DNA from: Elusimicrobiota bacterium
GTDB lineage: Bacteria > Elusimicrobiota > Elusimicrobia > UBA1565 > UBA9628
Assembly (NCBI GenBank): GCA_036676805.1
Contig: JAKFCD010000056.1
Location: 2,966 to 66,965 of the forward strand
Direction of reading: 5' to 3'
DNA: 64,000 nt
This document shows, in pieces, positions 37,934 to 55,409 of the stretch (the first letter of the stretch is position 1; every line of letters starts with the position of its first letter). The notes below the pieces were generated by a model. It was not told the DNA's origin and did no database searches. It worked only from the letters and a program-made list of their open reading frames with translations. Position numbers and translations under genes: made by a program.

Positions 37934-37955
37934 AGGGATCAATTTTCATGCAGTT
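37934..37955 (-). promoter_or_regulatory. Shared motif copy D upstream of the mobilisation/transfer operon
   Basis: Minus strand AACTGCATGAAAATTGATCCCT. Confidence 0.65.
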
Positions 37956-38011: not shown

Positions 38012-39061
38012 TTAGGCGGACGCCTGTCGGCGCTTGCGGAGGTTGCCGAAGCCTAGTTCGGTGCGATACTGCGCGATGGAACGGAGTGAAAGCCGGACCT
38101 GGTAAAGGCGGTCGATCTTGCGGCCCAGTTCTTCATCCGTCGCGTCGGGATATTGGCGAACGAGATCGTGGAGGCGATCCCGGATCAGGGATTTACGGCT
38201 GGGAACGAGCGTCTTCATCGGCGCCTCAAGTCCCCACGGAAGCTGGATCGACTTGTTCGAGATCAGGCGGTTGAGGACGCTCGGCGTGATGTCGAGCTTG
38301 TCCGAGAGCTCACGCTGGGTCAGGGGACGGCGTTGTCCCGGTTCGCCGCTGACGAAGAACGGCGCCTGGGCCGCGATCAGCGCTTCGAGCACCCGGTAGA
38401 GCGTGCTCTTGCGGCGGTCCAGCAGGCCGAGGTCCCGGAGAAACCCCTCCAGGCGACGCGCCTCCGGAGCGGGAAGGTCTTCGAGCATTCTGCGGCTCTT
38501 ATCCTCGTCTACCTGATAGTATCCCTTCCAAATCTGGCGATTAAAGAAGGCGAGCCCAGGTTTCCCCTTCTCCACGGTTATCCCCGCGACCGCGCTGTAG
38601 GTCTTCGCGGGCGCGGCGGACGACGCGGCCCCATCGAACTCGGCTTGGACGTACAGTTTGTTGACCAACTCCCGCAGCCGCCCGGCTTCCTCTTTCGAAA
38701 TCCGGCATACGCGCGCGCGCTCGTCGTCCGTGTAGCCCTCGTCGCTCAGGAAGAACTCCTGAAAACGCTTCTCTCCGACCTTCTGGAGGAGCCGGGCGAG
38801 GTCCCCTTGCCCGTCGAGCGCCGGGACGCCGTCGCTGGCCGTGCGAAGGCCCCAGCCCCCGAACCTCTGGGCCATGAAGCCCGCACCGGCATAAGGCTGG
38901 ACCGAGATCACCTTGGCATGAATGAGGCGCCGAAAGAGAACGTCGGCCTCGAGTTCGCGCACCCGGCCCGCGAAGTCCGCTTCGGGCAGCTCCAAGAGGC
39001 GGGCCAGCTTGATGCCGACCTGGACGCTGCCCCGGCCCGAAGTCGAGGCCCGGAACGTCAT
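38012..39061 (-). CDS. Divergent, compact sigma-54 (RpoN)-like factor
   Basis: Region-I-like LARLLELPEADFAGRVRELE, HTH RPLTQRELSDKLDITPSVLNRLISNK, and RpoN-box variant SLRSIAQYR. Confidence 0.85.
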   Translation of the reverse strand: MTFRASTSGRGSVQVGIKLARLLELPEADFAGRVRELEADVLFRRLIHAKVISVQPYAGAGFMAQRFGGWGLRTASDGVPALDGQGDLARLLQKVGEKRFQEFFLSDEGYTDDERARVCRISKEEAGRLRELVNKLYVQAEFDGAASSAAPAKTYSAVAGITVEKGKPGLAFFNRQIWKGYYQVDEDKSRRMLEDLPAPEARRLEGFLRDLGLLDRRKSTLYRVLEALIAAQAPFFVSGEPGQRRPLTQRELSDKLDITPSVLNRLISNKSIQLPWGLEAPMKTLVPSRKSLIRDRLHDLVRQYPDATDEELGRKIDRLYQVRLSLRSIAQYRTELGFGNLRKRRQASA

Positions 39062-39267
39062 TTCCGGCGGCCGCCGCGCAACACCGACGCGTAAGAGGCG
39101 ATGCGCTCGGCCACCGAGCGCGCCTGCTCCTCCATGAGCCGCACGAGCTCAAGCTCCCTGTCCGTGGGCACGCCGTGCAGCTGCGTCGCGGCCCGTTTGA
39201 GGTTGGAGCACTTGGCAATGACGTCGTGACACAAGTCCACCAGTTCGTCGGCAGGATTAGTCGCCAT
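39058..39267 (-). CDS. Stand-alone HisKA/DHp-like small protein
   Basis: 69 aa; LCHDVIAKCSNLKRAATQL...LELVRLMEEQARSVAERI resembles an H-box two-helix hairpin; overlaps both neighbours. Confidence 0.5.
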   Translation of the reverse strand: MATNPADELVDLCHDVIAKCSNLKRAATQLHGVPTDRELELVRLMEEQARSVAERIASYASVLRGGRRK

Positions 39268-40615
39268 CGTTCTTGCTCCGATGCTTTCCGGTCCGCTTGA
39301 GCGACTTGTAGAGCAGGCCCGTGTCGATCTTCAAGTCGGCCATGACCTTGGTCTTGCGGCCCTCGTTGTCCGTCAAGCTGCGCTGGATCGCCCCGTCCTC
39401 GAAACGATTGACCGCGGCGTAGAGGCCGTTCTCGAGGATATAGCTGTATTGCTGCTCGGTCAGGAACTCGTCGGAGGACTGGCCCGCGCGGGTCGTCGCC
39501 AAGATTTGACGCGCCGCATCCGCGGTGACGCGCCCCGAATCGCCGCCCGCCGCCAAGTCCACGAATTTCTTGAGCTCGCGGACGTTGCCCTGCCAGTCGT
39601 GACGCAATAGCAGCTGTTTCGCATCCGCCGTGAACGACAGTCGCAGCCCGCCGCGGTTGAAGAAGGCGATCAGCGGGAGGATGTCGGCCTTTCGCCTGGC
39701 CAAGGGCTTGAGCTCGATGGTCAGGCCTTGGACACGTTGGAGGAAGTCGAAGCGCAGGCACCCCTTCTTGACGAGGTTCTGGAGGTTCTCCAAGGTCGCG
39801 CTGATGATCCGGAAGCGGGACTTCACGGCACTGTCCGCTCCGAGTGGATAGAAGGCCTTCTCCTCGATGGCCTTGAGAAGCTTGGTCTGCATCGCAAGGC
39901 TCATGGAACCGATCTCGTCCAAGAAAAGCGTTCCCCCGTCCGCCAGGAGGAGCTTGCCCTTGCGTCCGTCCGCGGCGCCGGTGAAGGCGCCCTTGCGGTA
40001 GCCGAACAACTCCGCTTCCAGCAGATCCTCCGTGTAGGCCGCGCAATTGATCGCGACGAACTGCCCTTTCCGTCCGGACCGGCCATGGATGACTTCGGCC
40101 AAGCTCGTCTTGCCGGTGCCGGAGGGCCCCAGGATGATGACCGGCAGTTCCGAGGCTGCGTACTTGAGGGTTTCGGCGACGTTGGCGCGCGTGGCCGCGT
40201 CCTCAGTGACGAACAGGTCTTGGAACAGGCGGTCCTCGCCGCTCTGCGGGCTCTTCCGGAGGAAACGCGCGATGACCGCGCCGACGTTCTCCTCCTCGTT
40301 TCCCTTGGCGTAGAAGTCGTCGCAGCCCAGCTCGTAGGCGCGCTCAACCACCGCCTCAGAGTCATGGCCGGACATGACCACGCAGTAGGCCCCCGCCTTG
40401 GCCGCCATGGGGACCAACTCCAGGCCGGACTTGTCGTCCGACTTGCCGCTGAGCTTGAGGTCGATGAAGCAGATGTCGTTGCGGCGGGCGCCGATCTTCT
40501 TGCGGCCGGCCGCCAAGTCCGAGGCGAATTCAACATCATGCTCGCTCAGCTCCCCCTTCACGAGTTCGCGAGCGAGCGGATCGTCCTCAATGACCAAGAC
40601 CTTGAGCTTTCTCAT
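39257..40615 (-). CDS. NtrC-family sigma-54-dependent response regulator (bEBP)
   Basis: REC (VIEDD, FIDLKL), AAA+ GPSGTGKT, ELFGYRKGAFTGA, FLDEIG, WQGNVREL and a C-terminal HTH. Confidence 0.95.
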   Translation of the reverse strand: MRKLKVLVIEDDPLARELVKGELSEHDVEFASDLAAGRKKIGARRNDICFIDLKLSGKSDDKSGLELVPMAAKAGAYCVVMSGHDSEAVVERAYELGCDDFYAKGNEEENVGAVIARFLRKSPQSGEDRLFQDLFVTEDAATRANVAETLKYAASELPVIILGPSGTGKTSLAEVIHGRSGRKGQFVAINCAAYTEDLLEAELFGYRKGAFTGAADGRKGKLLLADGGTLFLDEIGSMSLAMQTKLLKAIEEKAFYPLGADSAVKSRFRIISATLENLQNLVKKGCLRFDFLQRVQGLTIELKPLARRKADILPLIAFFNRGGLRLSFTADAKQLLLRHDWQGNVRELKKFVDLAAGGDSGRVTADAARQILATTRAGQSSDEFLTEQQYSYILENGLYAAVNRFEDGAIQRSLTDNEGRKTKVMADLKIDTGLLYKSLKRTGKHRSKNDGD

Positions 40616-40703: not shown

Positions 40704-40725
40704 AACAGCATGAAAATTGATCACT
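40704..40725 (+). promoter_or_regulatory. Shared motif copy A upstream of the rSAM operon
   Basis: AACAGCATGAAAATTGATCACT, identical over 22 nt to copy B. A weak GG-N10-GC (40696-40709) overlaps it. Confidence 0.7.
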
Positions 40726-40759: not shown

Positions 40760-42778
40760 ATGATCGAGACCAACCCCGAAGCGAAAGTCCTGCTGGTCAG
40801 CATGCCGTTCGGCCCCCTCAACATGCCCTCGATCGGTCTTTCCCTGCTCCAAGCCTGCTTGAAGGACAAGGGCGTCGCGTCGCAATGCCTTTACATGACC
40901 ATCCCCTTCGCCAAGGCCATCGGCGCCGACCTCTACAACGAAATCACCTCCGGCAAGCCGGACTCGGCCGACATGCTCGGCGAGTGGATCTTCGCCGAGA
41001 CTTTGAGCCCCGGCCGCACCGACCCGGACGCCTACCTAAAGAACGTCCTACACGCCGGAGGCAAGAAGCCCGCCGACATCGATGCGATTTTCGCCAAGGC
41101 GCTTGGGGCCCGAGATCAGGCCGCGGCTTTCATCGAGCGCTGCGCCCGGGAAATCCCCTGGGGCCAATACCGCGTCATCGGCTTCACGAGCATTTTTCAG
41201 CAGAACGTCGCCTCTTTGGCGCTCGCCAAGCGCATCAAGGCCGCGCACTCCCAAGTCACCATCGTATTCGGCGGCGCGAACAGCGAGGGCGTGATGGGGC
41301 TTGAAATGCTCCGCAACTTCCCGTTCGTCGACGCGGTGGTCTCGGGCGAGGGCGAGATCGCTTTCCCCCAACTCGTCCTGCGCCTTTTGGAAGGCGAGTC
41401 CATTGAGGCCGTCCAGGGCGTCTTCACGCAGGCGAACTGCCGGCAGGCGTTCCCCCCGAACGCGCGACTCACCGCCCCGTCGCCCAAGACGATGGACGAC
41501 CTTCCCATCGTGGACTACGACGACTACTTCGGCCAGCTCCACGCCAGCGGCCTCGACATCACGCACGATCTCCGCCTCCTCTTTGAGACCTCGCGCGGCT
41601 GCTGGTGGGGCCAGAAATCCCACTGCACCTTCTGCGGCCTCAACAGCTCCAACATGGCCTTTCGCGCCAAGTCCCAAGAGCGCGCCTTGTCCGAGCTCGA
41701 AGGCATGCTCGCCCGCTATCCCGGCATCGAGGTCTCGGTCGTGGACAACATCCTCGACATGACCTACTTCCAGCGCTTCCTCCCCGCTCTGCGGGACAAA
41801 GGCGGAAAGTCCGACCTGTTCTACGAGGTCAAGGCGAACCTGCGCAAGGAGCAACTCCAGCTCATGCGCGAGGCCGGCATCACCAAGATTCAGCCGGGAA
41901 TCGAGAGCCTGAGCAGCGCCGTGCTCAAGTTGATGCGAAAGGGCACGACTGGCCTCCAGAACGTGCAGCTCATCAAGTGGTGTAAGGAGTTGAACATCAC
42001 CCCCTACTGGAACATCCTCTGGGGCTTCCCCGGCGAGGACGCGGCGGAGTATGAGAAGATGGCGCGCTGGATCCCCCTGCTGACTCACCTGCCGCCGCCC
42101 GGCAGCACCGCGCAGCTCCGCCTGGACCGCTTCAGCCCCAACTTCGACCAATCGGCGGCGCTGGGCTTCAAGAACGTCCGAGCGCGGTCCTCCTACGGCC
42201 ATCTTTATCCGACCTTCAGCGAGGAGTCTCTGCACAAGGCCGCCTATTACTTCTCCTTCGACTACCAGGACGGCCGCGACCCGCGAGGCTACGTCCGCTC
42301 GCTGCAGGACGCCGTCCAAACCTGGATCGGCGATTACCGCGAGAACGAGATGCTGTCCCTGGAAACCGAGGATGGGCTGCTCATCTGGGACCAGCGCGGC
42401 GCCGGCGAGCCCCGTCAATGGCTGCTGAAGGGCCGGGCGCGCGAGGTCTATGAGTCCTGCGACCAGATCCAGAGCGTGCGCGGCGTCGCCGCGCGCCTGG
42501 AAGCCTCCGGTAACGCGGAGTACGAGGCCGACATCGCCCGGCTCGCCCAGGCCATGGCGCGAGAAGGCCTGCTCCTCGAAGACAACGGCTTCTACCTCGC
42601 CCTCTCGATCCGCTTCGGCAACTACGCGCTGCCTGAGACCGTCCTGAGCCGTATCGCGACCGCGTTCGACCGCATGGGCAGCGGCGAACTCGATCTCTCT
42701 GAAGAAGCTCCGGGTCTGTACCACGTCCGGACGGCCGCCGCCGAGCCGCAATCGGCGCCGATCTGCGCTACGGCGTAG
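40760..42778 (+). CDS. RiPP-maturation B12-binding radical SAM enzyme (TIGR03975-like)
   Basis: LVSMPF...PSIGLSLL, GFTSIFQQNVASLALA, VFGGAN, ETSRGCWWGQKSHCTFCGLN, QPGIESLS, NILWGFPGE and LDRFSP. Confidence 0.92.
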   Translation: MIETNPEAKVLLVSMPFGPLNMPSIGLSLLQACLKDKGVASQCLYMTIPFAKAIGADLYNEITSGKPDSADMLGEWIFAETLSPGRTDPDAYLKNVLHAGGKKPADIDAIFAKALGARDQAAAFIERCAREIPWGQYRVIGFTSIFQQNVASLALAKRIKAAHSQVTIVFGGANSEGVMGLEMLRNFPFVDAVVSGEGEIAFPQLVLRLLEGESIEAVQGVFTQANCRQAFPPNARLTAPSPKTMDDLPIVDYDDYFGQLHASGLDITHDLRLLFETSRGCWWGQKSHCTFCGLNSSNMAFRAKSQERALSELEGMLARYPGIEVSVVDNILDMTYFQRFLPALRDKGGKSDLFYEVKANLRKEQLQLMREAGITKIQPGIESLSSAVLKLMRKGTTGLQNVQLIKWCKELNITPYWNILWGFPGEDAAEYEKMARWIPLLTHLPPPGSTAQLRLDRFSPNFDQSAALGFKNVRARSSYGHLYPTFSEESLHKAAYYFSFDYQDGRDPRGYVRSLQDAVQTWIGDYRENEMLSLETEDGLLIWDQRGAGEPRQWLLKGRAREVYESCDQIQSVRGVAARLEASGNAEYEADIARLAQAMAREGLLLEDNGFYLALSIRFGNYALPETVLSRIATAFDRMGSGELDLSEEAPGLYHVRTAAAEPQSAPICATA

Positions 42779-42810
42779 GAATAAAAAAACACGTCGCAAA
42801 GGAGAACCCC

Positions 42811-42960
42811 ATGAACCCGTCCCTTCCCGAGAGCAAGACCAAGATTCGCCTCAACAAAGAGGAGCTGCTCGCCAAGCTCTCGTCCGGCCCCGCCTCCGTC
42901 AACGGAATCGACAAATCGGGCCGCAACACCATCCACGTCAGCGTCGGCGTGGGAGCCTGA
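42811..42960 (+). CDS. 49-aa putative RiPP precursor peptide (below the ORF-track cutoff)
   Basis: AAGGAG SD then MNPSLPESKTKIRLNKEELLAKLSSGPASVNGIDKSGRNTIHVSVGVGA*, directly after the rSAM gene. Confidence 0.8.
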   Translation: MNPSLPESKTKIRLNKEELLAKLSSGPASVNGIDKSGRNTIHVSVGVGA

Positions 42961-42970
42961 ATTAAAGATG

Positions 42971-43009
42971 GTCGGGGAGGCTGGCCTTCGCGGGCCGGCC
43001 TCCCCGATC
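42971..43009 (+). terminator. Stem-loop between precursor and MFS genes
   Basis: GTCGGGGAG-G-GCTGGCC-TTCGCG-GGCCGGC-CTCCCCGAT; likely an mRNA stabiliser or partial terminator. Confidence 0.55.
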
Positions 43010-43031
43010 TCTTCCCCAAATTAACTATCTT

Positions 43032-44237
43032 ATGAACCTGAGCTACCGTCAAGAATTTCGGCGCCTCGTCGCGGGCTACGCCCTCTCCACCCTTGGGGAC
43101 GCGGGCGTAAGGATGCTCCTCGTCTGGATCACTTTGGAGCAACGCGGAGCCGTGGCGATGAGCGGCGTTTTCATCGCCGCCGCCGGGGCCTCCGTGTTCG
43201 GGCCCTATGCCGGGCGCAGCCTCGACCGCTACCCGGCGCGGTACATCCTGAGCGCGACCTGCGTAATACGCTTCGCCCTCATACTGGCTCTCGTCTTCAT
43301 GGATTCGCAGTCGATCGCGCGGTACGCCGTACTCTTCGCCTTCTTGAACGCGTTCTTCACCCTCGCCTTTGGGCCGGCCGTCGCTAAGACGATTCCCGCC
43401 ATGTTCACCCCGGATAAAATGCCCGAGGCAAACGCCTCATGCGGCGCCTCATTTCTCATCGCTTCGGCGGCAGGACCGGCGCTCGGCGGCGCCGTTCTTG
43501 CGCGTTTCGGGCCAAGCGAAGCTTGCGCGGTCTTCGCCGCGGTCCTCCTAGTCACCGCGCCTCTCTCGTATTTCATCGCCTTCCCGGTTGCAGCGGCGCA
43601 AGACGGCAAGGAGAAGATCGCGAGCGGCTACGCGGAAGGGTTCCGCATATTGGCGACGATGCCGGTCGTCCTCGTGCTCCTGGTCCTCGGCACAGCCCTG
43701 AACTTCGCGTTGGCGCCGATCAACGTGGCTCTCGCCCCGCTCATGCTCTCTCTCGGGACGGGCCCTCAGGGTTTCGGTTTCGCCATGGCCCTTTTCGTGG
43801 CCGGCGCCGTGGGCGGCAACTTCCTCGCGGGAAGACTTCTGAGGTCGGCAAGCTGGGAACAATCGGTCTTCGCCAGCCTGGGAGCCATCGCGTTCGGACT
43901 CGTCGCCGTCAGCGTGAGCCAAACTCCGGTCCAGGCCGCGATCGCCATCCTGGTCATCGGGACCGCCATTCCCTTCTTCCAGATCCCCGTCGCCACGCAG
44001 CTTCAGCGATTCGTTCCGTCCGCGAACGCGGGCCAGGTGTTCGCCTCGGTCAACTCCGTTACCCTCTTCGCGGCGCCGTTGGCGGCGGCGGGAGCCGGAG
44101 CATTGCTCAAGTGGTTTTCCCCGCCGCTCCTGTTCTCCGGGGCGGCGGTCTTATGCGCCGTGCTGTGTCTGGGTTGGGGGCTTTTTAAGCGACAGCAGGA
44201 AAGGGCGGCGCCTTTGCTTGACTCCAATTTCAGCTAG
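43032..44237 (+). CDS. MFS transporter (macrolide-efflux-like), probable exporter
   Basis: About 12 hydrophobic segments; GPYAGRSLDRYPAR motif-A-like; GPALGG. Confidence 0.88.
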   Translation: MNLSYRQEFRRLVAGYALSTLGDAGVRMLLVWITLEQRGAVAMSGVFIAAAGASVFGPYAGRSLDRYPARYILSATCVIRFALILALVFMDSQSIARYAVLFAFLNAFFTLAFGPAVAKTIPAMFTPDKMPEANASCGASFLIASAAGPALGGAVLARFGPSEACAVFAAVLLVTAPLSYFIAFPVAAAQDGKEKIASGYAEGFRILATMPVVLVLLVLGTALNFALAPINVALAPLMLSLGTGPQGFGFAMALFVAGAVGGNFLAGRLLRSASWEQSVFASLGAIAFGLVAVSVSQTPVQAAIAILVIGTAIPFFQIPVATQLQRFVPSANAGQVFASVNSVTLFAAPLAAAGAGALLKWFSPPLLFSGAAVLCAVLCLGWGLFKRQQERAAPLLDSNFS

Positions 44238-44253: not shown

Positions 44254-44859
44254 TTACGGCTTCTTCAGGTTGGCGCGATAGTAGCGCAGCCAGAAATCGA
44301 GCTGTTCTCGGTAGCCGGCCTCGGCTTGCGCCAGTGGAACCGACTCCGAGACGTATGCTTCGTTCTCTTTCCGCGTCACTGCCGCGCCGAGAAGTCTCCC
44401 GTCGGCCGATATCAAGTAATACCGGAGCTGTTTCTTGCCGTTGACCCTGACTAAAGTCACCAGGATGATGTCGGTTTTTCCCCGTGCCGCGGTGACTGAA
44501 AATAGATTTGTCGAAGCCGCATCCGTCGCTTTGATGTTTTTGGCGAGGAAGGATTCGCCGTCGAAAGCAACGCCCAGCTTCCTCAAGACATCGCCGATGG
44601 ACTGCATTTCCGCACCGGACTTTTGAACGACCTCGATCAAGGTCGCGATAGCTTGAGTGGTCTCATCGGCAGGCGTCGATTGCGGCGCGGCCGGCACGGC
44701 GCTCGGAGCTTGCGGCATCGGGATGCCCCGCATACCGGCAAATCCGGCCTGCTCCAGGGCCTCGGTCTGTCCGCGCAACAGCGTTCCCGCATCCCGGACC
44801 TGGGCCGTCGCCGTCAACGGGAGAGATGCCAGAGCAACGATGAGAATAAAATGGTTCAT
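44254..44859 (-). CDS. Hypothetical secreted protein
   Basis: Signal-peptide-like MNHFILIVALASLPLTATA; GGAG SD. Confidence 0.6.
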   Translation of the reverse strand: MNHFILIVALASLPLTATAQVRDAGTLLRGQTEALEQAGFAGMRGIPMPQAPSAVPAAPQSTPADETTQAIATLIEVVQKSGAEMQSIGDVLRKLGVAFDGESFLAKNIKATDAASTNLFSVTAARGKTDIILVTLVRVNGKKQLRYYLISADGRLLGAAVTRKENEAYVSESVPLAQAEAGYREQLDFWLRYYRANLKKP

Positions 44860-45016
44860 GGTCGATGAGACTCCTTACACCCATTGTACTCGCCCCCAGG
44901 TTTGATCGCCTGGGCCGCAAGGGCACCGAGACAGCGCTATGGGCCCGCCCACAATGAGGGCCCTTTGGACGCCCTTTTCATTGCGAATTTCCGTGGCCGG
45001 GGTTATACTGCCAGGG

Positions 45017-46471
45017 ATGTTCAGAGCGGCCTATCTCCTGATCTCTCTCTCCATTTTGACGGCTTCTCCCGTATATTGTCAGAGCAATGTCATGGAGGAA
45101 TCGTTATCTTCGAATACGCCCCGCCTACAGGACATGCTTGAGGAAGACGACCCGCCGCAAGCGACGGAGCCCGCGCCGCTGAGGTCATCGGATCGCGCGA
45201 CCGAGCCTGATTCGACGCAGGCCAAGGTCCAAAACACGGGACAGGCGGCCGCGCTCGGGGTAGCCTCGGCCGCCGCGGCGATACGGGCCGCCCCGCCCGC
45301 TTCACGCGCTGCGGCCGTCAAGCCGCAAGCCGTCGCCGCCAAACTGGCGATTCGCGACGCTTTGACCCGCGGAGACGCCCCCGCCGCCGAGCGTCTTTTC
45401 ATGGAGGCGCTCGACCGTTTTCCCCACGATCGCGATCTGCGCGAGCTGAGAAACCAACAGACTCTGCGGCTGCACGACGAGAAAGTGCGAGCTATCTTTG
45501 GTCGAACGCTTACGGAGAGCCGGAAGCTGTTTGGCAGGCAATGGCTGCCGGGACAGTCCATGGAGGAAGGCGAGTGGAACATCGAGCTCCGAAAGGAACG
45601 TGTCGGCGTAGGTCGCGCGCTTAGGCCCGGTTCCAGCGCGGGGACGGCGCTCGTCAACGGCTATGCCTTGATGGACCGCGGCGACCCTATCCGGGCAGAA
45701 CAGGTCCTGAGCGGAGCCATCAAGAAGAACGGCAATTCGGCCCCGCTCTATTACGCGCGAGTGATGGCGCGCGGAATGTCCGGAAACCTCGAGGGAGCGG
45801 ACGAAGATTCGCTCAAAGCCGTCTCCTTAAGCCGCAACGAGCCTGCGACCTTGTCCCAAAGGGCGCTTTTGATGATGCTGGCGCGCCGCCGGGAGGAAGC
45901 CTTTGCCTGGGCCGACCGCGCCCTGAAGAGCGACGCCGGCGACGCGGACGCCCTTGCCATCCGAGGCCGATTCCTGTGGAGAGATCGCGGCAGCTACGAC
46001 CTCGCGCTCGCGGATCTCAAGCAAGCCGCGCGGATCTCCCCAGAACGATACGGAAACCTTTACCAGGAGGCCCAGAAGCGGTTCTACGGCCAACGGGCGC
46101 GCGGGGCCCTGGGCAAAGGCGACGACAAGCAGGCCCTGGAGGACGCGGACCGCGCCCTGGCGAGCGACGCCGGCGATGCGACGGCCCGAATGGTCCGAGG
46201 CGCGGTCTTCTCGCGGGCGGGCAAGCTGGAGGAGACGATCAAGGAAACGACTCTGGCCTTGAAGGCGGACCGTCGGTCGGCGGAGGCTTTGCTCTACCGC
46301 GGTATGGCCTACGAGACGATGGGCTATAGAGGGAGGGCACTGGCCGATTTCAAACGCGCGGCGGAGATTGAGCCGGTCAAATTCCGGCGGTTCTACGAGC
46401 GGCTCGTGCAGGCGCAACGCGAGGGTTCTCCTCCGCTCTGGTCGCGAGGTGGCGGCACAGCCTCGAAGTGA
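45017..46471 (+). CDS. Secreted tetratricopeptide-repeat protein
   Basis: Signal peptide from ATG 45017; multiple TPRs (ALLYRGMAYETMGYRGRALADFKRAAEIEP). Confidence 0.8.
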   Translation: MFRAAYLLISLSILTASPVYCQSNVMEESLSSNTPRLQDMLEEDDPPQATEPAPLRSSDRATEPDSTQAKVQNTGQAAALGVASAAAAIRAAPPASRAAAVKPQAVAAKLAIRDALTRGDAPAAERLFMEALDRFPHDRDLRELRNQQTLRLHDEKVRAIFGRTLTESRKLFGRQWLPGQSMEEGEWNIELRKERVGVGRALRPGSSAGTALVNGYALMDRGDPIRAEQVLSGAIKKNGNSAPLYYARVMARGMSGNLEGADEDSLKAVSLSRNEPATLSQRALLMMLARRREEAFAWADRALKSDAGDADALAIRGRFLWRDRGSYDLALADLKQAARISPERYGNLYQEAQKRFYGQRARGALGKGDDKQALEDADRALASDAGDATARMVRGAVFSRAGKLEETIKETTLALKADRRSAEALLYRGMAYETMGYRGRALADFKRAAEIEPVKFRRFYERLVQAQREGSPPLWSRGGGTASK

Positions 46472-46574
46472 CCTTGGGCATCGAAGGTAGGGGGCCTATC
46501 CGCGAATAGGCCAATAGACCCTCGTCCAACAAGGAACTCCAGGCTAAGCTTCTATATCGCCTTCAAGGCGACTC

Positions 46575-46670
46575 TGTAGCCCGGGGGATTGGCCCCGGGG
46601 TATCCACGATCCGACCGCAATCGGATGAAACCAGAGGCTTGGCACGCAGTGTGCCCAGGCCTTTGGTTTT
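46575..46670 (+). ncRNA. Candidate structured leader RNA, copy 1
   Basis: 38-nt block with 35/38 identity to 53332-53369 (minus), then hairpin ATCCGA-CCGCAA-TCGGAT, then a long stem AAACCAGAGGC...GCCTTTGGTTTT. Confidence 0.5.
46639..46654 (+). promoter_or_regulatory. Possible sigma-54 promoter (-24/-12) for the peptide gene
   Basis: TTGGCACGCAGTGTGC has a perfect TGGCACG and GG-N10-GC spacing. Caveat: it lies inside a palindrome. Confidence 0.5.
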
Positions 46671-46731: not shown

Positions 46732-46884
46732 ATGAACAAAAAGCTCCCGTTCCTCATCGTCGGCTATCTGCTGGGCGCGTGCGCTCTCGTGGCGTCCATT
46801 TCCGCCATGGTCTACACCAAAGCCTCCGTGGAAGTCGCTTCGAGTTCCGACAGCAACTGCAAGAACGGCGGCTCCGGCCTTTAA
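46732..46884 (+). CDS. 50-aa putative signal/RiPP precursor peptide
   Basis: GGAGG SD; MNKKLPFLIVGYLLGACALVASISAMVYTKASVEVASSSDSNCKNGGSGL has a basic-hydrophobic N-terminus and a Ser/Cys/Gly-rich C-terminus. Confidence 0.75.
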   Translation: MNKKLPFLIVGYLLGACALVASISAMVYTKASVEVASSSDSNCKNGGSGL

Positions 46885-46980
46885 ACCGTCGTATTCTTGT
46901 TCCGCCGATCCGCCCAGCAACGGCCATGGGGCCTATGCTGGGCGGCTATTTTCAACAGCCCCTTTGCCAGTGTCTCTCCC

Positions 46981-48450
46981 ATGAACCCAACGATGCGTCG
47001 TTACGCGCTTCTCGCATTCGCGGTATTGGGCGTGATTTTGGTTTACTCATGGCATGGCATGACCCATTCTAAGACCCTCCGAGTCGGCTTTCCCCTCATT
47101 TTTCTCCGGCAAGACCCGACGATCCTGGACCCGCGAAATACGGATACGGTCTATGAGTATTATCTGCTCGAGAATCTTGCCGTCGGCTTGGTCCGCGACT
47201 CGAGCCAGTCGCCGTCGGGCTACGGGCCCGGCATCGCGGAGTCTTGGGAGCGTCTCTCACCGACGCGTTGGGTATTCCATTTGCGGCCGGGACTGGCCTG
47301 GAGCGACGGCACCCCTATCGACCCCGCGCTGATCGCGAGTCATGTCGTGTCGTTGAGCCGGGAGAAACATAGGCACATCGTCTACCTGAAGAAGCTTCTG
47401 AGCGCGACGGTGGAGAACCGCGATCTCGTCCTCGAGTTCTCCGCGCCCACCAACGACGGCCTGATCCATGAGCTGAGCCTGGCGGACTCGGCGTTGCTCC
47501 ATCCCGACAATCTTACGAAGGACTGGCTCGTGACCTCGGGCCCTTTCTCGGTCGAATCATACGAACCAGGAAAGAGTCTTCACTTGAAGAAGAATCCCCA
47601 CTATCGGGTTCAAGACGGTTACCCGGACCAAGTGGAGCTAGTGGGCTTCACAAAGGATACCACCGGAAACTTCTTCGACACCGTCGACATCGACCTGCTG
47701 AAGATACCTCTCCCTTCTTTTCGAGGATCGAATCCGAAGGTCTTAGCCAAGGCGCCTCAGGTGCTTCGCGGCTACCCCACGTCGATTTACCAGCTGTACT
47801 TCAATACGGAGAAATCCCTTTGGCGCGACGTCGAGGCGCGTCGGGAATTGGCCTTCATCACCGAGCAGGCGCTGAAGGGGTTCACATATGCCGATCTCGC
47901 CCGTGAGCGCCAATTGATCCCGAAAGGCTATTCAGGCCGTCTCGATGACGGCGCGGTGCCGAGTGGCTCATCGCGGGGTCTCCTCGCCGGCAAACGCTTG
48001 AAAATCTACCTTTGGCCTTCATTCTCCGACGGCCCTCAGATCGCCGCGGCCCTCAAAGCAGGTTTCGAGAAGGCGGGAGTCCCGCTGGACATCGGGTACG
48101 CGTGGGAGCTGCCCGAGATGGCGCCCGATTCCGACCTCCAGATGACATTATTCGCGGGCAATCAGCGCGAAGCGATGGGAAGCTGGCAGTTCATGTTCTC
48201 CCCGGATCATGGGCACCTCCGCCACTTCCGTCCGAAAGTGGAGCCTTTTTTCGACCGGATCATGGCCTCCGACGACAAGGAGGACCGCGAGACCAACATC
48301 CGCGCCCTCCACAGTCACGTGTTGAAGGAAGCCTACGCCGTGCCCCTTTTCATCGAGGCGGACATCCTTGTGGCAAGCGATCAGGTCGACCTTTCACGTC
48401 TAAATCCCTTCGACTTGCGTCTGCGGTTCTATGAAGTCCAGTGGAAGTAG
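46981..48450 (+). CDS. ABC-type family-5 (oligopeptide) substrate-binding protein, without permease or ATPase genes
   Basis: PGIAESWERLSPTRWVFHLRPGLAWSDGTPI, VTSGPFSVESYEPG, LKKNPHY and EAYAVPLF. Confidence 0.88.
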   Translation: MNPTMRRYALLAFAVLGVILVYSWHGMTHSKTLRVGFPLIFLRQDPTILDPRNTDTVYEYYLLENLAVGLVRDSSQSPSGYGPGIAESWERLSPTRWVFHLRPGLAWSDGTPIDPALIASHVVSLSREKHRHIVYLKKLLSATVENRDLVLEFSAPTNDGLIHELSLADSALLHPDNLTKDWLVTSGPFSVESYEPGKSLHLKKNPHYRVQDGYPDQVELVGFTKDTTGNFFDTVDIDLLKIPLPSFRGSNPKVLAKAPQVLRGYPTSIYQLYFNTEKSLWRDVEARRELAFITEQALKGFTYADLARERQLIPKGYSGRLDDGAVPSGSSRGLLAGKRLKIYLWPSFSDGPQIAAALKAGFEKAGVPLDIGYAWELPEMAPDSDLQMTLFAGNQREAMGSWQFMFSPDHGHLRHFRPKVEPFFDRIMASDDKEDRETNIRALHSHVLKEAYAVPLFIEADILVASDQVDLSRLNPFDLRLRFYEVQWK

Positions 48451-49387
48451 CCGCTGGTCCCTCGACCTGAATCTCATCCGCAAGGGCGGCGCGCAGATAA
48501 AGTCCCCGCTGACCGGCCGCACTGAGCAGTTGAATTGGTCGGTCATCAAAGTTCCCGCGAAACTCCTTCCGATCTCCGTGGTCGAATGCCGTCTCGTAGG
48601 CATGGGCCGAACAGTCTACGGCTACGGCGACAGCCTGCTCTATACGGACTCCCTCACCCAAGCCTTCGCCGAGGCCTGGGAACGCCTATGGTTCGACCTT
48701 CATTGCGACGACCCAAACGGAGTCAGCGGCCCGCTTCGCAGTAGCAACGGCTTCGCCTGCGGAGCAACGCCACAAGAGGCCGAGGCGGCCGCACGATCCG
48801 AACTGATCGAGCGCGCCGTATATTTGACGGCCTGGAACGCGCGCAATGGCTGGGTCCCGATCACATCGACCGGACTCTTGAACCGGGTTCTACTCGCGTC
48901 CCTCGATGTCCTCGGCTGGGAAATCGCGTTATTCCGCCTGTCAGAGGAAACATTGGGCGATGTGATTTGCGGGCTGAGCACCCGAAAAACCGGCGGAGTG
49001 CTCTTCGACTGCGTCTATCAGCGGCAAGGCGTCGCTATGGGGCAGGCCCAATCGAAGGTGCTGCGTTCGCTTCTCAGATCCGCCGTCGTCCTTGGCAATT
49101 CCCCCGCCTCTTATGCGCCGCTTCCCGAGCGCGGCGGCCCTTCCTCGCATAGAGACTTCTATATGGAGCCGGCTAACCTCGTCGCCTTCGATTTCTTGAA
49201 GGAGCGGCTATCGATGGCCGAACGAGTTAAACTAGACGGCTGCGATCATACCGAGACCCGTATCCTTGTCGATATCGAAGGATTCCCCTGCGTCGCGGCG
49301 GCGACGAATCCACATTGGCCCGTTCTGAGCTGGGGCAAAGAATCGCTTAAAGAGGGAGGCAATCCATGGCCGCATCCTCTCGCCTGA
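48431..49387 (+). CDS. Compact YcaO-family protein
   Basis: AFAEAWER, SSNGFACG...EAEAAARSELIER (ATP-binding motifs) and a Pro-rich C-terminus NPWPHPLA. Confidence 0.85.
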   Translation: MKSSGSSRWSLDLNLIRKGGAQIKSPLTGRTEQLNWSVIKVPAKLLPISVVECRLVGMGRTVYGYGDSLLYTDSLTQAFAEAWERLWFDLHCDDPNGVSGPLRSSNGFACGATPQEAEAAARSELIERAVYLTAWNARNGWVPITSTGLLNRVLLASLDVLGWEIALFRLSEETLGDVICGLSTRKTGGVLFDCVYQRQGVAMGQAQSKVLRSLLRSAVVLGNSPASYAPLPERGGPSSHRDFYMEPANLVAFDFLKERLSMAERVKLDGCDHTETRILVDIEGFPCVAAATNPHWPVLSWGKESLKEGGNPWPHPLA

Positions 49388-51411
49388 CTCTCGTCTCGCC
49401 GCTGCGCGTCTGGCTCATTTTCAACGCGTTGTTCGTCGCCTTGGTCGCCAGCAGCTGGTATACCCTTTATCGTCAAGCCCAGGCCGACAACCAGCGCCTT
49501 GTCGCCAGCCAAACCATCACTTTGACCAAATCTCGCTTCGACGACATCAAGAACCGCCGGTTCCGGGATTTCGTCGAAGGCGTCGGCCGAGAGTTCTCGG
49601 ACCTCCATGTCCGGCTAAGCATCGCCGAAGAGACATACCAATTCGGCAAACTCCCCTCTCCGGGACACTGCAGCGACCTGGTCTACCCGCTCGGAGGTCG
49701 CGGCGCGGCGAGCGAGGCCCGCATCACGATGTGCCGCCCGTTCCGGTTCTCGAGCGCTCCGATCTTGGCCGTACTTCTCGTCTATCTCCTGATTTCAGGC
49801 CTGTCCCTCGTATTCGTCAGGCGGCTGGAGCGCCGCACGACCGCCGCGCTCGTCGAATTCCTGCGGGCCTCGGGCGTGGAGATCGATTCGGGTCGAGACC
49901 TTATCGGCATCATGGCGGACATGCGCGACATTCGTATTCGGCTCGATCAGGCCCAGGCGCAGGAACGCCAATTGATCGACACCCGCGCCCGCGCCGAACT
50001 GGCCGAGCAGGTGGCGCACGATATCCGGTCTCCGCTCACCGCCCTGGAGGCCACGGCCGGCGACATGGACTCGATGCCTGAGAAGAAGCGTCTTCAGATC
50101 CGAAGCGCCCTTTCCCGCATCCGCGATATCGCTAACGGCCTTCTCGATCGACGGAGAGCCGACATAGGGGAAAGCGGCTCTACAGTAAAAAGGGCGGATT
50201 CCTCCCCACAGCTGCTGTCCAGCTTGATCGAACCCATCATCTCCGAGAAACGCCTGGCGCTAGGACCCGACTCAGGCATCGAGGTCATTTCTCCCGATGC
50301 GGCCGGCTCCTACGGGCTCTTCGTCCTGGTCGATCCAGTGGAGTTCAAGCGGGCGCTCTCGAATCTTATCAACAACGCCTTGGAAGCTCTGGACGGAAAC
50401 GCGGGAAAGGTGCGCGTAACCGTCTCCAAGTGTGACAGCCAAATTCTCGTCGCCGTGAATGACGACGGCAAGGGCATGCCGCCGGACGTGCTCGCGAAGC
50501 TCGGACAGCGCGGCGCCACCTTCGGCAAGGCCGGCGGCTCCGGGCTGGGGCTCCATCATGCCCGGGCCAGCGCCAAGGCCTGGGGTGGACGCTTGGACAT
50601 CGCCTCGGAGGTCGGCGAGGGGACGACCGTGACTTTGGCTCTTCCCGCGGCCTCCGCGCCTGTTTGGTTCGTTCCTGAGGTCGCGACGGCTCGAAGCGGC
50701 CTCGTCGTGATTCTAGATGACGACGAGGGCATCCATCAGGTCTGGCGCGATCGTCTGAACTCCCTGGGTGCTGATGGACAAACCGTCGAAGTACGCGGCT
50801 TTTTCACGCCGCAGGACCTTCGGGGGTGGGTCAAGGCGAACCCCCTTGACGCTTCGCGCGCGCTCTATCTCCTGGACCACGACCTGGCAGGCTTCACGGA
50901 CACTGGTCTAAGCCTTGCTTCGGAACTCAGTCTTGAACGGCACGCGATTCTTGTTACGGGACGGCATGAAGACGCTAAAGTCCTGGAAGAATGCCGAATG
51001 CTTGGCATCCGCATGCTCCCAAAAGAGTTGGCCCCGCTGGTCCCCATCCGAGTGTCTGCTTCCGCTCCGACCAACGCCTCCGCGACTAGGCTGCTTGACG
51101 CCGTGTTGATTGACGACGACCCGCTGACCCGAATGACCTGGGAGAATGCGGCTGCCGAATCTGGGAAGGAGTTGCGCACCTTTTCTTCCCCAGCGGAGTT
51201 TATGCGCGAATATGGAGAGATCGACCGGCGGACGCCGATATACATGGATGTGAATCTGTCCACGGGGACGGACGGGGCCGCGGAGTCGCTGTGGGTTCAC
51301 TCTCTCGGGTTCAGCGAAATATACCTCGCGTCGGGGCATCCGCCTGAGAGATTCGCGAACCTTAAGCACCTACGGGCAGTGGTCGGCAAGGAACCGCCCT
51401 GGAACGCATGA
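49366..51411 (+). CDS. Membrane hybrid histidine kinase with two C-terminal receiver domains
   Basis: Two TM segments around a short periplasmic domain; QVAHDIRSPL, NLINNALEA, DDGKGM and GSGLGL; REC1 (ILDDD, LLDHDL) and REC2 (IDDD, YMDVNL). Confidence 0.92.
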   Translation: MAASSRLTLVSPLRVWLIFNALFVALVASSWYTLYRQAQADNQRLVASQTITLTKSRFDDIKNRRFRDFVEGVGREFSDLHVRLSIAEETYQFGKLPSPGHCSDLVYPLGGRGAASEARITMCRPFRFSSAPILAVLLVYLLISGLSLVFVRRLERRTTAALVEFLRASGVEIDSGRDLIGIMADMRDIRIRLDQAQAQERQLIDTRARAELAEQVAHDIRSPLTALEATAGDMDSMPEKKRLQIRSALSRIRDIANGLLDRRRADIGESGSTVKRADSSPQLLSSLIEPIISEKRLALGPDSGIEVISPDAAGSYGLFVLVDPVEFKRALSNLINNALEALDGNAGKVRVTVSKCDSQILVAVNDDGKGMPPDVLAKLGQRGATFGKAGGSGLGLHHARASAKAWGGRLDIASEVGEGTTVTLALPAASAPVWFVPEVATARSGLVVILDDDEGIHQVWRDRLNSLGADGQTVEVRGFFTPQDLRGWVKANPLDASRALYLLDHDLAGFTDTGLSLASELSLERHAILVTGRHEDAKVLEECRMLGIRMLPKELAPLVPIRVSASAPTNASATRLLDAVLIDDDPLTRMTWENAAAESGKELRTFSSPAEFMREYGEIDRRTPIYMDVNLSTGTDGAAESLWVHSLGFSEIYLASGHPPERFANLKHLRAVVGKEPPWNA

Positions 51412-53278: not shown

Positions 53279-53369
53279 AAAAAACGGGAAACGATAGTAG
53301 TCGTTTCCCGTGGTCGCATCCCGTTTCGGCGGGATCGTGGATACCCCGGGGCCGATTCCCCAGGCTACA
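53279..53369 (-). ncRNA. Candidate structured leader RNA, copy 2, ending in an intrinsic terminator
   Basis: Minus strand: 38-nt block, hairpin ATCCCG-CCGAAA-CGGGAT, then an 11-bp stem ACGGGAAACGA/TCGTTTCCCGT plus a T-run. Confidence 0.55.
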
Positions 53370-55356: not shown

Positions 55357-55409
55357 GCCAAAGCAGGACGCCGCTGACGTTAAGGCATCGGCGGCCAGCG
55401 AGGAGTTCA

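What the first reader, a model, noticed from the sequence alone, without database searches (positions are those of the whole stretch)
40760..44237. Minimal B12-radical-SAM RiPP cluster with an uncalled 49-aa precursor ending NTIHVSVGVGA
Seen: rSAM (CWWGQKSHCTFC), then a precursor with a strong AAGGAG SD at 42811-42960, then a stable hairpin, then an MFS gene. No protease is present. The precursor has a charged leader-like part (KIRLNKEELLAKL) and an alternating Val/Gly tail. Known: cobalamin-dependent rSAM RiPP enzymes are typically C-methyltransferases, and hairpins after precursor genes raise precursor mRNA levels. Inference: a C-methylated short peptide (Val/Ile/His candidates) is exported by the MFS. 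It is divergently transcribed from the bEBP and carries the shared motif, so it may be a second signal or a weapon under ICE control.
Basis: partly seen in the sequence, partly recalled or inferred. Interest (0 to 1): 0.7.

Follow-up and report, generated by a model that had tools for sequence, protein, structure and literature searches.

The report
Three-gene methylated-peptide operon on an ICE
A mobile element from an uncultivated soil or groundwater bacterium carries a real three-gene operon (a vitamin-B12-dependent radical enzyme, a 49-residue precursor peptide and an exporter) that most likely makes a small methylated peptide and shares a promoter motif with the element's DNA-transfer genes.

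Summary
All three genes, the AAGGAG ribosome-binding site and the hairpin are at the stated coordinates.

- **Enzyme:** the 672-aa protein is a full-length member of TIGR03975, "RiPP maturation radical SAM C-methyltransferase" (659 bits, cutoff 282). It has the PoyB/PoyC-type Cx7Cx2C motif, and its model matches only cobalamin-dependent radical SAM structures.
- **Peptide:** All nine loci read that carry a rSAM orthologue of at least 73% identity or a precursor homologue (eight with the rSAM gene, one contig starting at the precursor) have a 46–51 aa ORF at the same place, sometimes in tandem. About 20 distinct sequences share a conserved leader, a near-invariant Arg38 and a variable Val/Ile-alternating core.
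- **Core divergence:** against a relative with a 97%-identical enzyme, the leader is 27/31 identical and the tail only 4/18.
- **Hairpin and exporter:** both are conserved in every relative read.
- **Wider family:** distant TIGR03975 clusters in Firmicutes and Chloroflexi encode rSAM, similar Val-alternating precursors, an M16 protease, a wHTH protein and a homologous MFS. The window's cluster is a reduced version of these.
- **Regulation:** a 17-nt promoter motif is shared with the T4SS-side operon, the integrase and two response regulators.

The chemistry (C-methylation) and the role (signal or weapon) are inferred, not shown. I class it as a new variant of a known kind, of moderate interest.

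The parts
40708..40724 (+). Shared 17-nt promoter-region motif GCATGAAAATTGATCAC, ending 35 nt upstream of the rSAM start codon
   Evidence: It occurs at 5 sites in the window against 0.1 expected. It is conserved at the same position in L001-L005, L008 and L089. In relatives it also precedes the REC-only response regulator and the T4SS-side operon.
40760..42778 (+). Cobalamin-dependent (class B) radical SAM enzyme, TIGR03975 'RiPP maturation radical SAM C-methyltransferase'. Its Cx7Cx2C cluster motif is C281/C289/C292.
   Evidence: TIGR03975 scores 659 bits against a cutoff of 282, over model positions 1-606 of 606. Pfam finds Radical_SAM and B12-binding. The three Cys are invariant among 14 family members. 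The AF2 model has pLDDT 85.5, and its top PDB matches are TokK, TsrM, OxsB, MgmA and CysS.
42799..42804 (+). Shine-Dalgarno AAGGAG, 6 nt before the precursor ATG
   Evidence: Read directly from the sequence. The string (A/C/T)(A/G)GGAGA(A/C/T)CCCC-ATG is conserved in all orthologous loci.
42811..42924 (+). Leader part of the precursor peptide (residues 1-38, ending at the near-invariant Arg38)
   Evidence: In an alignment of 10 homologues, M1 N2 E18 L20 A21 G26 P27 S29 V30 N31 are invariant, and K11 L12 E17 L23 K35 R38 are at least 90% conserved. Further members appear. The leader/core boundary itself is inferred.
42925..42960 (+). Predicted core peptide NTIHVSVGVGA (residues 39-49) plus the stop codon
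   Evidence: This is the variable region. The dominant motif is N-T-[IV]-x-V-x-[VI]-G-x, with outliers. Against L003 the tail is 4/18 identical while the leader is 27/31 and the enzyme 97%.
42965..43013 (+). Conserved GC-rich hairpin between the precursor and MFS genes, with no U-tract
   Evidence: Free energy is -42.8 kcal/mol with z = -5.9. It is present after all 8 precursor copies examined. The outer stem is invariant in sequence, and one pair shows a compensatory change. It is unique in the window.
43032..44237 (+). MFS transporter (MFS_1/MFS_3, DHA3/EntS-like), the putative exporter
   Evidence: Supported by Pfam and NCBIfam. It follows the precursor in every orthologous locus. It aligns over its full length with the MFS of distant TIGR03975 clusters at 28% identity, E = 1e-33.
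39257..40615 (-). Divergently transcribed response-regulator-type bacterial enhancer-binding protein (REC + sigma-54-interaction AAA+). Context only: a candidate regulator.
   Evidence: Pfam finds Response_reg and Sigma54_activat at 183 bits. The gene is conserved in position in L001, L002, L004, L008 and L089.
38012..39061 (-). Sigma-54-like protein in which only the C-terminal Sigma54_DBD is detectable (349 aa). Context only: a candidate sigma factor for the shared motif.
   Evidence: Pfam finds Sigma54_DBD at 52.8 bits over residues 214-346, with no AID or CBD hit. It is conserved in relatives.

Best explanation
This is a compact, ICE-borne RiPP operon. A promoter carrying the element's shared 17-nt motif drives three genes.

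1. **Enzyme.** A cobalamin-dependent radical SAM enzyme of the PoyB/PoyC-type C-methyltransferase subfamily (TIGR03975).
2. **Precursor.** A 49-aa peptide that is strongly translated. Its conserved 38-residue leader (…K-L-R-L-N-K-E-E-L-L-A-K-L-A-A-G-P-A-S-V-N…R38) is recognised by the enzyme itself, probably through its C-terminal helix-helix-helix-strand-strand region at about residues 558-614.
3. **Exporter.** An MFS_3/EntS-like transporter.

The enzyme installs one or more methyl groups on unactivated sp3 carbons in the 11-residue C-terminal core NTIHVSVGVGA. The most likely targets are C-beta of the alternating Val/Ile, and possibly Thr. A protease encoded elsewhere removes the leader at or near Arg38, and the MFS exports the roughly 9-13-residue hydrophobic product.

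The conserved GC-rich hairpin after the precursor gene acts as a partial terminator or 3'-end stabiliser. This would make precursor mRNA more abundant than MFS mRNA.

**Shown:** the gene identities, the family membership of the enzyme, the conservation and variability pattern of the precursor, conservation of the hairpin and the MFS, and the shared motif.

**Inferred:** methylation as the chemistry, the target residues, the cleavage site, the direction of export, the role of the hairpin and the biological role.
For: **Enzyme**
- TIGR03975 matches over its full length at 659 bits, against a cutoff of 282.
- The Cx7Cx2C motif (C281, C289, C292) is invariant in the family. It is the unconventional motif reported for PoyB/PoyC and the bottromycin C-beta-methyltransferases (PMC5682303).
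- The AF2 model matches only B12-radical-SAM enzymes at the top: TokK, TsrM, OxsB, MgmA and CysS.

**Precursor**
- A 46-51 aa ORF with the same SD lies directly after the rSAM gene in L001-L006, L008 and L089, twice in L004 and L089. L090, whose contig starts at the precursor, has precursor then MFS.
- About 20 distinct homologues share the leader and vary in the core.
- The reading frame and whole-codon length changes are kept, substitutions are conservative, and the invariant Ser switches between TCN and AGC codons.
- Divergence is confined to the core when the enzyme is 97% identical.

**Architecture**
- Distant TIGR03975 clusters pair the enzyme with short precursors ending in VKVSVSVSI, GHGIGVAVVF, GHGVSVGVVVSF or VVISISVSV, together with a homologous MFS.
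- The hairpin is conserved in 8 of 8 copies.

**Regulation**
- The motif is shared with other ICE promoters.
Against: - No member of this clade, and no class-1 cluster, has been characterised in the literature I could search.
- I could not verify with the tools that PoyB/PoyC themselves fall inside TIGR03975. The link rests on the NCBIfam name and the Cx7Cx2C motif.
- Class B radical SAM enzymes also catalyse non-methylation chemistry, for example OxsB, BchE and HpnJ.
- The Pfam B12-binding hit is just below its gathering score (31.3 against 32.1 bits).
- No protease is present, so maturation is unexplained.
- The hairpin has almost no covariation, because its stem is invariant in sequence. 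It could therefore be a DNA or protein-binding site instead.
- There is no expression evidence: no RNA runs were found.
- Similarity of the leader to class-1 leaders is only suggestive (hhalign P = 0.0013, probability 18%).
Confidence: 0.62

Rival explanations
1. The operon is a RiPP operon as described, but the enzyme performs chemistry other than simple C-methylation on the core. Examples would be cyclopropanation, C-C or C-S cross-linking, or another rearrangement. The product would then be a structurally different small peptide.
For: Class B radical SAM enzymes are chemically diverse. The nearest solved structures include the non-methylase OxsB, and the NCBIfam hits include BchE and HpnJ. 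The window clade is at most 49% identical to all other TIGR03975 members. A different radical SAM class is reported to turn Val in peptides into cyclopropylglycine (PMC10878394 abstract).
Against: The enzyme is a full-length, high-scoring member of a subfamily that NCBI names a C-methyltransferase. It carries the Cx7Cx2C motif associated with peptide C-beta-methylases. The Val/Ile-rich cores match the known substrate preference of PoyC-type enzymes.
Confidence: 0.2
2. The small ORF is a real peptide but is not the enzyme's substrate. The rSAM enzyme would modify something else that the MFS exports: a small molecule, a non-ribosomal product, or the second small peptide encoded before the SBP_bac_5 gene. 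The 49-aa peptide would then have a separate role, for example as a regulatory or membrane peptide.
For: A homologous B12-rSAM methylase (DscE) acts on a non-ribosomal peptide (PMC12858407). A second small-peptide module (small ORF, SBP_bac_5, YcaO or small rSAM, histidine kinase) lies nearby in most relatives.
Against: The peptide is strictly adjacent to the rSAM gene in every locus where that gene was read, and is duplicated in tandem in two of them. The leader-conserved, core-variable pattern is typical of RiPP precursors. The second module varies in its enzyme (YcaO, small rSAM, or hydrolase plus ICMT-like) and in orientation, while the rSAM-peptide-MFS unit stays constant. No NRPS is nearby.
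Confidence: 0.08
3. The small ORF and hairpin form a translational or transcriptional attenuator (a leader-peptide device) that controls MFS expression. The peptide sequence itself would have no function.
For: A short ORF with a strong SD lies directly upstream of a very stable hairpin and a downstream gene that lacks an obvious SD.
Against: The amino-acid sequence of the leader is conserved through nucleotide change, including the Ser codon-family switch. The hairpin starts 5 nt after the stop codon and has no alternative anti-terminator pairing with the ORF. Tandem duplicated copies each have their own hairpin. Analogous peptides in distant clusters lack this hairpin context.
Confidence: 0.04

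Closest known systems
PoyB/PoyC, the cobalamin-dependent radical SAM C-methyltransferases of polytheonamide (proteusin) biosynthesis
   Same: The domain architecture is the same: an N-terminal B12-binding domain followed by a radical SAM core. Both carry the unconventional Cx7Cx2C cluster motif. Both have peptide substrates rich in Val, Ile, Gly and Thr. The NCBIfam subfamily name is the same.
   Different: The precursor has no nitrile-hydratase-like or Nif11 leader (no hit). There is no PoyD-type epimerase and no other tailoring enzyme. The core is 9-13 residues, not about 48. The exporter is an MFS. The operon sits on an ICE in Elusimicrobiota.
Uncharacterised TIGR03975 'class-1' clusters in Paenibacillus, Lysinibacillus, Ktedonobacter and Herpetosiphonaceae (rSAM, precursor(s), M16 peptidase, wHTH, MFS_3)
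   Same: The enzyme subfamily is the same (40-47% identity). [quoted passage not shown] The MFS_3 transporter is homologous.
   Different: The window's cluster lacks the M16 peptidase and the wHTH protein. Its leader is shorter, and HMMER does not detect any relationship to the class-1 leaders. hhalign gives only a suggestive result. The class-1 loci read (L038, L040, L049, L065, L067, L078) show no T4SS genes within the roughly 4 kb flanks examined.
Bottromycin radical SAM methyltransferases (BotRMT1-3)
   Same: They are B12-dependent, carry the Cx7Cx2C motif, and C-beta-methylate Val, Pro and Phe in a ribosomal peptide (PMC5682303).
   Different: The bottromycin precursor has a follower peptide, and its cluster needs YcaO, a hydrolase and a P450. 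None of these belongs to the constant unit here.
Peptide-pheromone control of conjugation, such as the enterococcal cCF10/iCF10 system with the OppA-like PrgZ. This rests on my own knowledge and was not tested.
   Same: A short hydrophobic peptide is derived from the C-terminus of a small ORF on a conjugative element. A family-5 solute-binding protein is encoded nearby. The peptide operon shares a promoter motif with the transfer genes.
   Different: The peptide here is paired with a modifying radical SAM enzyme and an MFS. The nearby sensor-like genes are a histidine kinase, REC proteins and a bEBP, not an RRNPP receptor. No functional link has been shown.

Membership tests
TIGR03975 / class B radical SAM RiPP C-methyltransferases | Full-length match to the curated subfamily model above its cutoff | tested here: met
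   The score is 659.2 bits against a cutoff of 281.85. Residues 10-617 cover model positions 1-606 of 606.
TIGR03975 / class B radical SAM RiPP C-methyltransferases | N-terminal cobalamin-binding Rossmann domain followed by a radical SAM barrel | tested here: met
   Pfam B12-binding gives E = 2e-7, at 31.3 bits just under its gathering score of 32.1, and Radical_SAM gives 57.7 bits. The AF2 model's best PDB matches are all B12-rSAM enzymes, at E = 1e-12 to 1e-9.
TIGR03975 / class B radical SAM RiPP C-methyltransferases | Cx7Cx2C [4Fe-4S] motif, as in PoyB/PoyC and BotRMT | tested here: met
   The motif reads C281-WWGQKSH-C289-TF-C292. All three Cys are invariant in alignment A1. The motif is described in PMC5682303.
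TIGR03975 / class B radical SAM RiPP C-methyltransferases | Methyl transfer to an sp3 carbon of a ribosomal peptide | not testable with these tools
   This needs co-expression or in-vitro reconstitution followed by MS/MS.
RiPP precursor peptide (general) | A short ORF adjacent to the modifying enzyme, with a conserved leader and a variable core across homologous clusters | tested here: met
   The ORF is present in every orthologous locus read. The leader has 10 invariant positions. Divergence is localised to the core, at 4/18 identical residues against 27/31 in the leader.
Proteusins (polytheonamide-type RiPPs) | Precursor with a nitrile-hydratase-like (NHLP) or Nif11-type leader | tested here: not met
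   The 49-aa peptide gives no Pfam or NCBIfam hit, even at E = 1 or below.
Proteusins (polytheonamide-type RiPPs) | Radical SAM epimerase (PoyD-type) in the cluster | tested here: not met
   Only one radical SAM gene lies in 40760-44237. The neighbours are the bEBP, the MFS, a 201-aa protein and a TPR protein.
Peptide-pheromone-controlled conjugation systems | The peptide is sensed by an element-encoded receptor and changes transfer-gene expression | not testable with these tools
   Only the co-location and the shared promoter motif are shown.
Canonical sigma-54 promoter | GG at -24 and GC at -12 with fixed 10-nt spacing, conserved across sites | tested here: not met
   GG-N10-GC fits at the window's rSAM site. 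It does not fit at the other four sites or in L002 and L008. The conserved block is GCAT-N-AAAATTGATC.

The most novel reading that the evidence does not exclude
The methylated hydrophobic peptide may be an ICE-encoded, autoinduced pheromone. In this reading it is exported by the MFS and sensed through the element's SBP_bac_5, histidine kinase and REC proteins. The signal passes to the bEBP and the truncated sigma-54-like factor, which act on the shared GCATGAAAATTGATCAC promoters. This would switch on both the peptide operon itself and the T4SS and integrase genes. It would amount to peptide quorum control of conjugation in Elusimicrobiota, with core hypervariability defining 'pherotypes' of related ICEs.
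Probability: 0.2. Interest if true: 0.8.

Novelty: new variant of a known kind. Interest (0 to 1): 0.52.

Why it matters
TIGR03975 enzymes number in the thousands: 7,923 of the 8,000 candidates scored passed E = 1e-20. They trigger antiSMASH's RiPP-like rule, yet such hits have been discarded as false positives because no precursor was recognised.

This locus and its relatives supply a clear precursor family, and the Firmicutes/Chloroflexi clusters supply a second. Together they point to a common substrate logic: short C-terminal cores that alternate Val/Ile with small residues. With only three genes, the operon is an unusually simple system for studying leader recognition and site selectivity of a class B radical SAM peptide methylase.

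The operon is fixed inside the regulatory region of a conjugative element and shares a promoter motif with the transfer genes. This raises a testable possibility: that a modified peptide regulates, or accompanies, horizontal transfer in an uncultivated phylum.

Tried and rejected
- **Canonical sigma-54 promoter upstream of the rSAM gene.** A GG-N10-GC pattern fits at this one site, but it is not conserved at the other motif sites or in L002 and L008. The loose pattern TGGC-N10-GC is also not enriched in the window, at 82 matches against 68 ± 9 expected.
- **Hairpin as a canonical intrinsic terminator.** There is no U-tract, and the terminator scan did not list it.
- **Hairpin as a dispersed REP-like repeat.** Its arms occur only here in the window.
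- **Curated family for the precursor or for the class-1 precursors.** Neither Pfam nor NCBIfam has one.
- **Sequence homology between the window's precursor and class-1 precursors.** Exhaustive HMMER finds only this clade, and hhalign is merely suggestive.
- **Literature on TIGR03975 products, on these core sequences and on this architecture.** Nothing specific turned up.
- **Expression evidence.** No RNA runs hold the region. The DNA runs are soil and groundwater metagenomes.
- **The 510-aa TPR protein (44939-46471) as an RRNPP-type receptor.** Its N-terminus is hydrophobic, as read from the sequence. It is absent from L001, L002, L004, L008 and L089, so it is not part of the conserved system.


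Full report

Yes. The ORF map and the raw sequence show these features:
- A 672-aa ORF at 40760-42778 (+) that contains SRGCWWGQKSHCTFCG.
- A 49-aa ORF at 42811-42960 (+), MNPSLPESKTKIRLNKEELLAKLSSGPASVNGIDKSGRNTIHVSVGVGA. An AAGGAG at 42799-42804 lies 6 nt before its ATG.
- A hairpin at 42965-43013.
- A 401-aa ORF at 43032-44237 (+).

The hairpin folds at -42.8 kcal/mol, against a shuffle mean of -23.9, z = -5.9, and 0 of 200 shuffles fold as well. It has no U-tract, and the terminator scan did not list it.

Pfam finds Radical_SAM plus B12-binding in the first ORF, MFS_1/MFS_3 in the third, and nothing in the peptide. The divergent upstream gene (39257-40615, -) is a REC + sigma-54-interaction AAA+ activator.

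**2. The enzyme**

NCBIfam places it, over its full length, in TIGR03975, "RiPP maturation radical SAM C-methyltransferase", at 659 bits against a cutoff of 282.

Its cluster-binding motif is C281-x7-C289-x2-C292. All three Cys are invariant in an alignment of 14 diverse family members. A review notes that this unconventional Cx7Cx2C motif is shared by PoyB/PoyC and the bottromycin C-beta-methyltransferases (PMC5682303).

By sequence, the only solved relative is TokK. An AlphaFold model is confident (pLDDT 85.5, pTM 0.85). It is disordered only in the cofactor-less cluster loop at 282-299 and in the C-terminal tail. Its best matches are TokK, TsrM, OxsB, MgmA and CysS, all cobalamin-dependent radical SAM enzymes. 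The class B architecture is therefore established. Methyltransferase activity is inferred from the subfamily.

**3. The peptide is a genuine, conserved gene**

The enzyme has a small clade of close orthologues (P0001-P0006, 73-97% identity, one of them labelled Elusimicrobiota). Identity then drops to 49% or less.

I read nine loci in all (L001-L006, L008, L089, L090). Eight were reached through a rSAM orthologue of at least 73% identity. L089 and L090 were reached through precursor homologue P0139, and L090's contig starts at the precursor. In every one a 46-51 aa ORF sits in the same place and is followed by an MFS gene. Where its upstream sequence was read, it carries a near-identical SD (...GGAGAnCCCC-ATG). 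L004 and L089 carry two tandem copies.

A profile search raised the family to about 20 distinct sequences. The alignment shows:
- Invariant: M1 N2 E18 L20 A21 G26 P27 S29 V30 N31.
- Near-invariant: K11 L12 E17 L23 K35 R38.
- After Arg38, the sequence varies around a dominant motif, N-T-[IV]-x-V-x-[VI]-G-x. Examples are NTIHVSVGVGA, NTIQVTVGI, NTIQVTIGC, NTVFVAVGV, HTITVGI and EKISVTIGN.
- Outliers are AGIYGGIIIGT, NAAAINIGITIGT, SIGVGIMLCS and KLSVRIVC.

Codon analysis supports translation. The frame is open in all copies, and length differences are whole codons. Replacements are conservative (L/I, N/D, K/R, L/M, S/A). The invariant Ser uses both TCN and AGC codons.

Against L003, the rSAM protein is 97% identical and nucleotide identity across that gene is mostly 93-98%. 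The leader is 27/31 identical and the tail only 4/18. Identity then recovers in the MFS gene, whose protein is 90% identical.

This leader-conserved, core-variable pattern is what one expects of a RiPP precursor.

An exhaustive HMMER search of 1.84 billion representatives found only two clusters, both from this clade. The precursor family is narrow.

The word "uncalled" needs softening. The ORF is in the public protein collection, and NCBI annotates a homologue as a hypothetical protein.

**4. The wider family shows the same logic**

I read 80 loci of more distant TIGR03975 enzymes at 37-47% identity. Several kinds of candidate precursor lie next to the enzyme.

The most relevant kind, which I call class 1, is found in Paenibacillus, Lysinibacillus, Ktedonobacter, Ktedonobacterales, Herpetosiphonaceae, an alphaproteobacterium and a Vulcanimicrobiota MAG. 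Its features are:
- A 55-80 aa peptide lies directly downstream, often in tandem.
- The leader is charged (…K-x-I-T-L-x-P-x-x-F…D-G-x-V-x-I…F-A-E-A-L…).
- The C-terminus reads VKVSVSVSI, VVISISVSV, IKVGVVVEF, GHGIGVAVVF or GHGVSVGVVVSF.

These class-1 clusters continue with an M16 peptidase, a winged-helix protein and an MFS_3 transporter. That transporter aligns over its full length with the window's MFS at 28% identity, E = 1e-33.

The window's operon therefore looks like a reduced version of a widespread but apparently undescribed cluster type. It keeps the enzyme, a precursor with a Val/Ile-alternating core and the MFS, and it has lost the protease and the wHTH protein.

Direct homology of the two leader types is not established. 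hhalign gives P = 0.0013 at 18% probability, and HMMER finds nothing.

Neither peptide type has a Pfam or NCBIfam model. I found no paper that mentions these sequences or this architecture. One metagenomic study removed antiSMASH TIGR03975-rule clusters as likely false positives, which shows that these precursors generally go unrecognised.

**5. The hairpin**

It is present after all eight precursor copies examined, including both tandem copies in L004. The outer stem (GGGGAGGCCGG…CCGGCCTCCCC) is invariant, the apex is variable, and one pair shows a compensatory change. It is unique within the window.

Its conservation and position support a role in the operon. Because there is almost no covariation, an RNA role is plausible but not proven.

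The precursor has a strong SD, while I see no obvious SD before the MFS gene in the window or in the relatives. Together with the hairpin, this fits high precursor and low transporter expression. From my own knowledge, similar hairpins follow the structural genes of lantibiotic operons such as nisA.

**6. Context and regulation**

The surrounding region is ICE-like:
- A tyrosine integrase at 19305-20351.
- A VirB4/TraC-type ATPase at 24946-27384.
- A T4SS coupling protein at 33738-35486.
- A tRNA at 11704-11793.

Between the T4SS genes and the RiPP operon lie a sigma-54-like protein in which only the DNA-binding domain is detectable (38012-39061), a 69-aa ORF and the bEBP. This arrangement is conserved in L001, L002, L004, L008 and L089.

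GCATGAAAATTGATCAC occurs five times in the window against 0.1 expected:
- 35 nt upstream of the rSAM start codon.
- Upstream of two REC-only response regulators (53530-53949 and 55410-55817).
- Just downstream of the sigma-54-like gene, facing the T4SS-side operon (37935-37951, -).
- Abutting the integrase start (20337-20353, -).

In relatives the motif recurs before the rSAM gene, before the REC-only regulator and before the T4SS-side operon. The peptide operon therefore shares a cis-element with the transfer genes.

The motif does not behave as a canonical -24/-12 sigma-54 promoter. Which factor reads it is unknown.

**7. Mechanism proposed**

Transcription starts from the shared-motif promoter. 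The class B radical SAM enzyme recognises the conserved leader directly. The model shows a helix-helix-helix-strand-strand unit at about residues 558-614 that could serve this purpose, and that reading is my inference.

The enzyme methylates unactivated carbons of the alternating Val/Ile, and possibly Thr, in the core. An unlinked protease cuts at or near Arg38. The MFS exports a 9-13-residue hydrophobic peptide.

My confidence that this is a real RiPP operon with this peptide as substrate is about 0.85. My confidence that the chemistry is C-methylation is about 0.6-0.65. The biological role is open.

The evidence does not discriminate between a signal and a weapon. Core variability between near-identical enzymes fits either pherotype divergence or a bacteriocin arms race.

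In favour of a signal:
- The product is small.
- The operon shares a promoter motif with the transfer genes.
- An SBP_bac_5, histidine kinase and REC module lies nearby.

These are circumstantial.

**8. Comparison with known systems and novelty**

The enzyme is a member of a known, curated subfamily. The system is not a proteusin, because it has no NHLP/Nif11 leader and no epimerase. It is not bottromycin-like either.

The new elements are the precursor family, the minimal three-gene form and its fixed place in an ICE regulatory region. I rate it a new variant of a known kind. Interest is about 0.5: solid and testable, but the product and role are still inferred.

Noticed in passing
window 46569-46639 (+) and 53305-53375 (-); also L001 13497-13567 and 18486-18556, L002 20203-20273, L004 7763-7833, L008 11166-11236 and 18586-18657: There are two strong matches to the 2'-dG-II purine-riboswitch aptamer (RF03165, 84 and 77 bits against a gathering score of 60). 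One precedes the operon of small peptide, SBP_bac_5, YcaO and histidine kinase. The other precedes a minus-strand ORF (52755-53225). Both positions are conserved in related ICE loci. A purine-type riboswitch in the regulatory region of a conjugative element is unusual.
   Followed up: partly
window ~46732-46884 (+), 46897-48450, 48431-49387, 49366-51411: This is a second small-peptide module. A peptide of about 50 aa has a hydrophobic N-terminus and a conserved C-terminal ..(A/S)NCK(G/N).. motif (MNKKLPFLIVGYLLGACALVASISAMVYTKASVEVASSSDSNCKNGGSGL). It is followed by an SBP_bac_5 protein, a short YcaO-like protein and a hybrid histidine kinase. In relatives the YcaO is replaced by a 352-aa radical SAM protein (L089, L090) or by a hydrolase plus an ICMT-like methyltransferase (L008). 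That suggests a variable modifying enzyme in front of a constant sensor.
   Followed up: partly
window 38012-39061 (-), 39058-39267 (-), 39257-40615 (-): An ICE-encoded sigma-54-like protein of 349 aa has only the C-terminal Sigma54_DBD detectable, with no activator-interacting or core-binding domain hit. It is co-transcribed with a conserved 69-aa ORF and a REC-AAA+ bEBP. The trio is conserved in L001, L002, L004, L008 and L089.
   Followed up: partly
window 20337-20353 (-), 37935-37951 (-), 40708-40724 (+), 53469-53485 (+), 55342-55358 (+): The 17-nt motif GCATGAAAATTGATCAC occurs 5 times against 0.1 expected. It defines a putative ICE regulon: the integrase, the T4SS-side operon, the rSAM-peptide operon and two REC-only response regulators. 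It lacks a conserved -24 GG, so it is not a canonical sigma-54 promoter.
   Followed up: partly
L010, L015, L017, L019, L025, L029, L033, L037, L088 (about 10-40 nt downstream of the rSAM stop codon): In many Acidobacteriota, TIGR03975 enzymes are followed directly by 31-64 aa Lys/Ala-rich, histone-H1-like peptides, for example MATKKKAAKKAPAKKAAKKAAKKAPAKKKAAKKKPAKKKAPKADISNGQD. This is a very different candidate substrate class.
   Followed up: no
L077 3574-3966, L061 3492-3860, L072 3357-3749, L085 3534-3866 (upstream of the rSAM gene): Another candidate precursor class lies next to TIGR03975 enzymes in Paracoccus denitrificans and Pyrinomonadaceae. These are 110-130 aa peptides with a coiled-coil-like leader (…LEMRVAELEDKL…), a Cys/Ile/Val-rich repeat core (…CVISQCTVISQCIRPCVVQACTIRACTI…) and a Gly-rich tail.
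   Followed up: no
window 44254-44859 (-) and 44939-46471 (+): A 201-aa protein and a 510-aa TPR protein, each with a hydrophobic N-terminus that looks like a signal sequence, lie between the MFS gene and the riboswitch. The 201-aa gene is shared with L003 at 67% identity. Both genes are absent from L001, L002, L004, L008 and L089, so this looks like an insertion into the conserved layout.
   Followed up: partly
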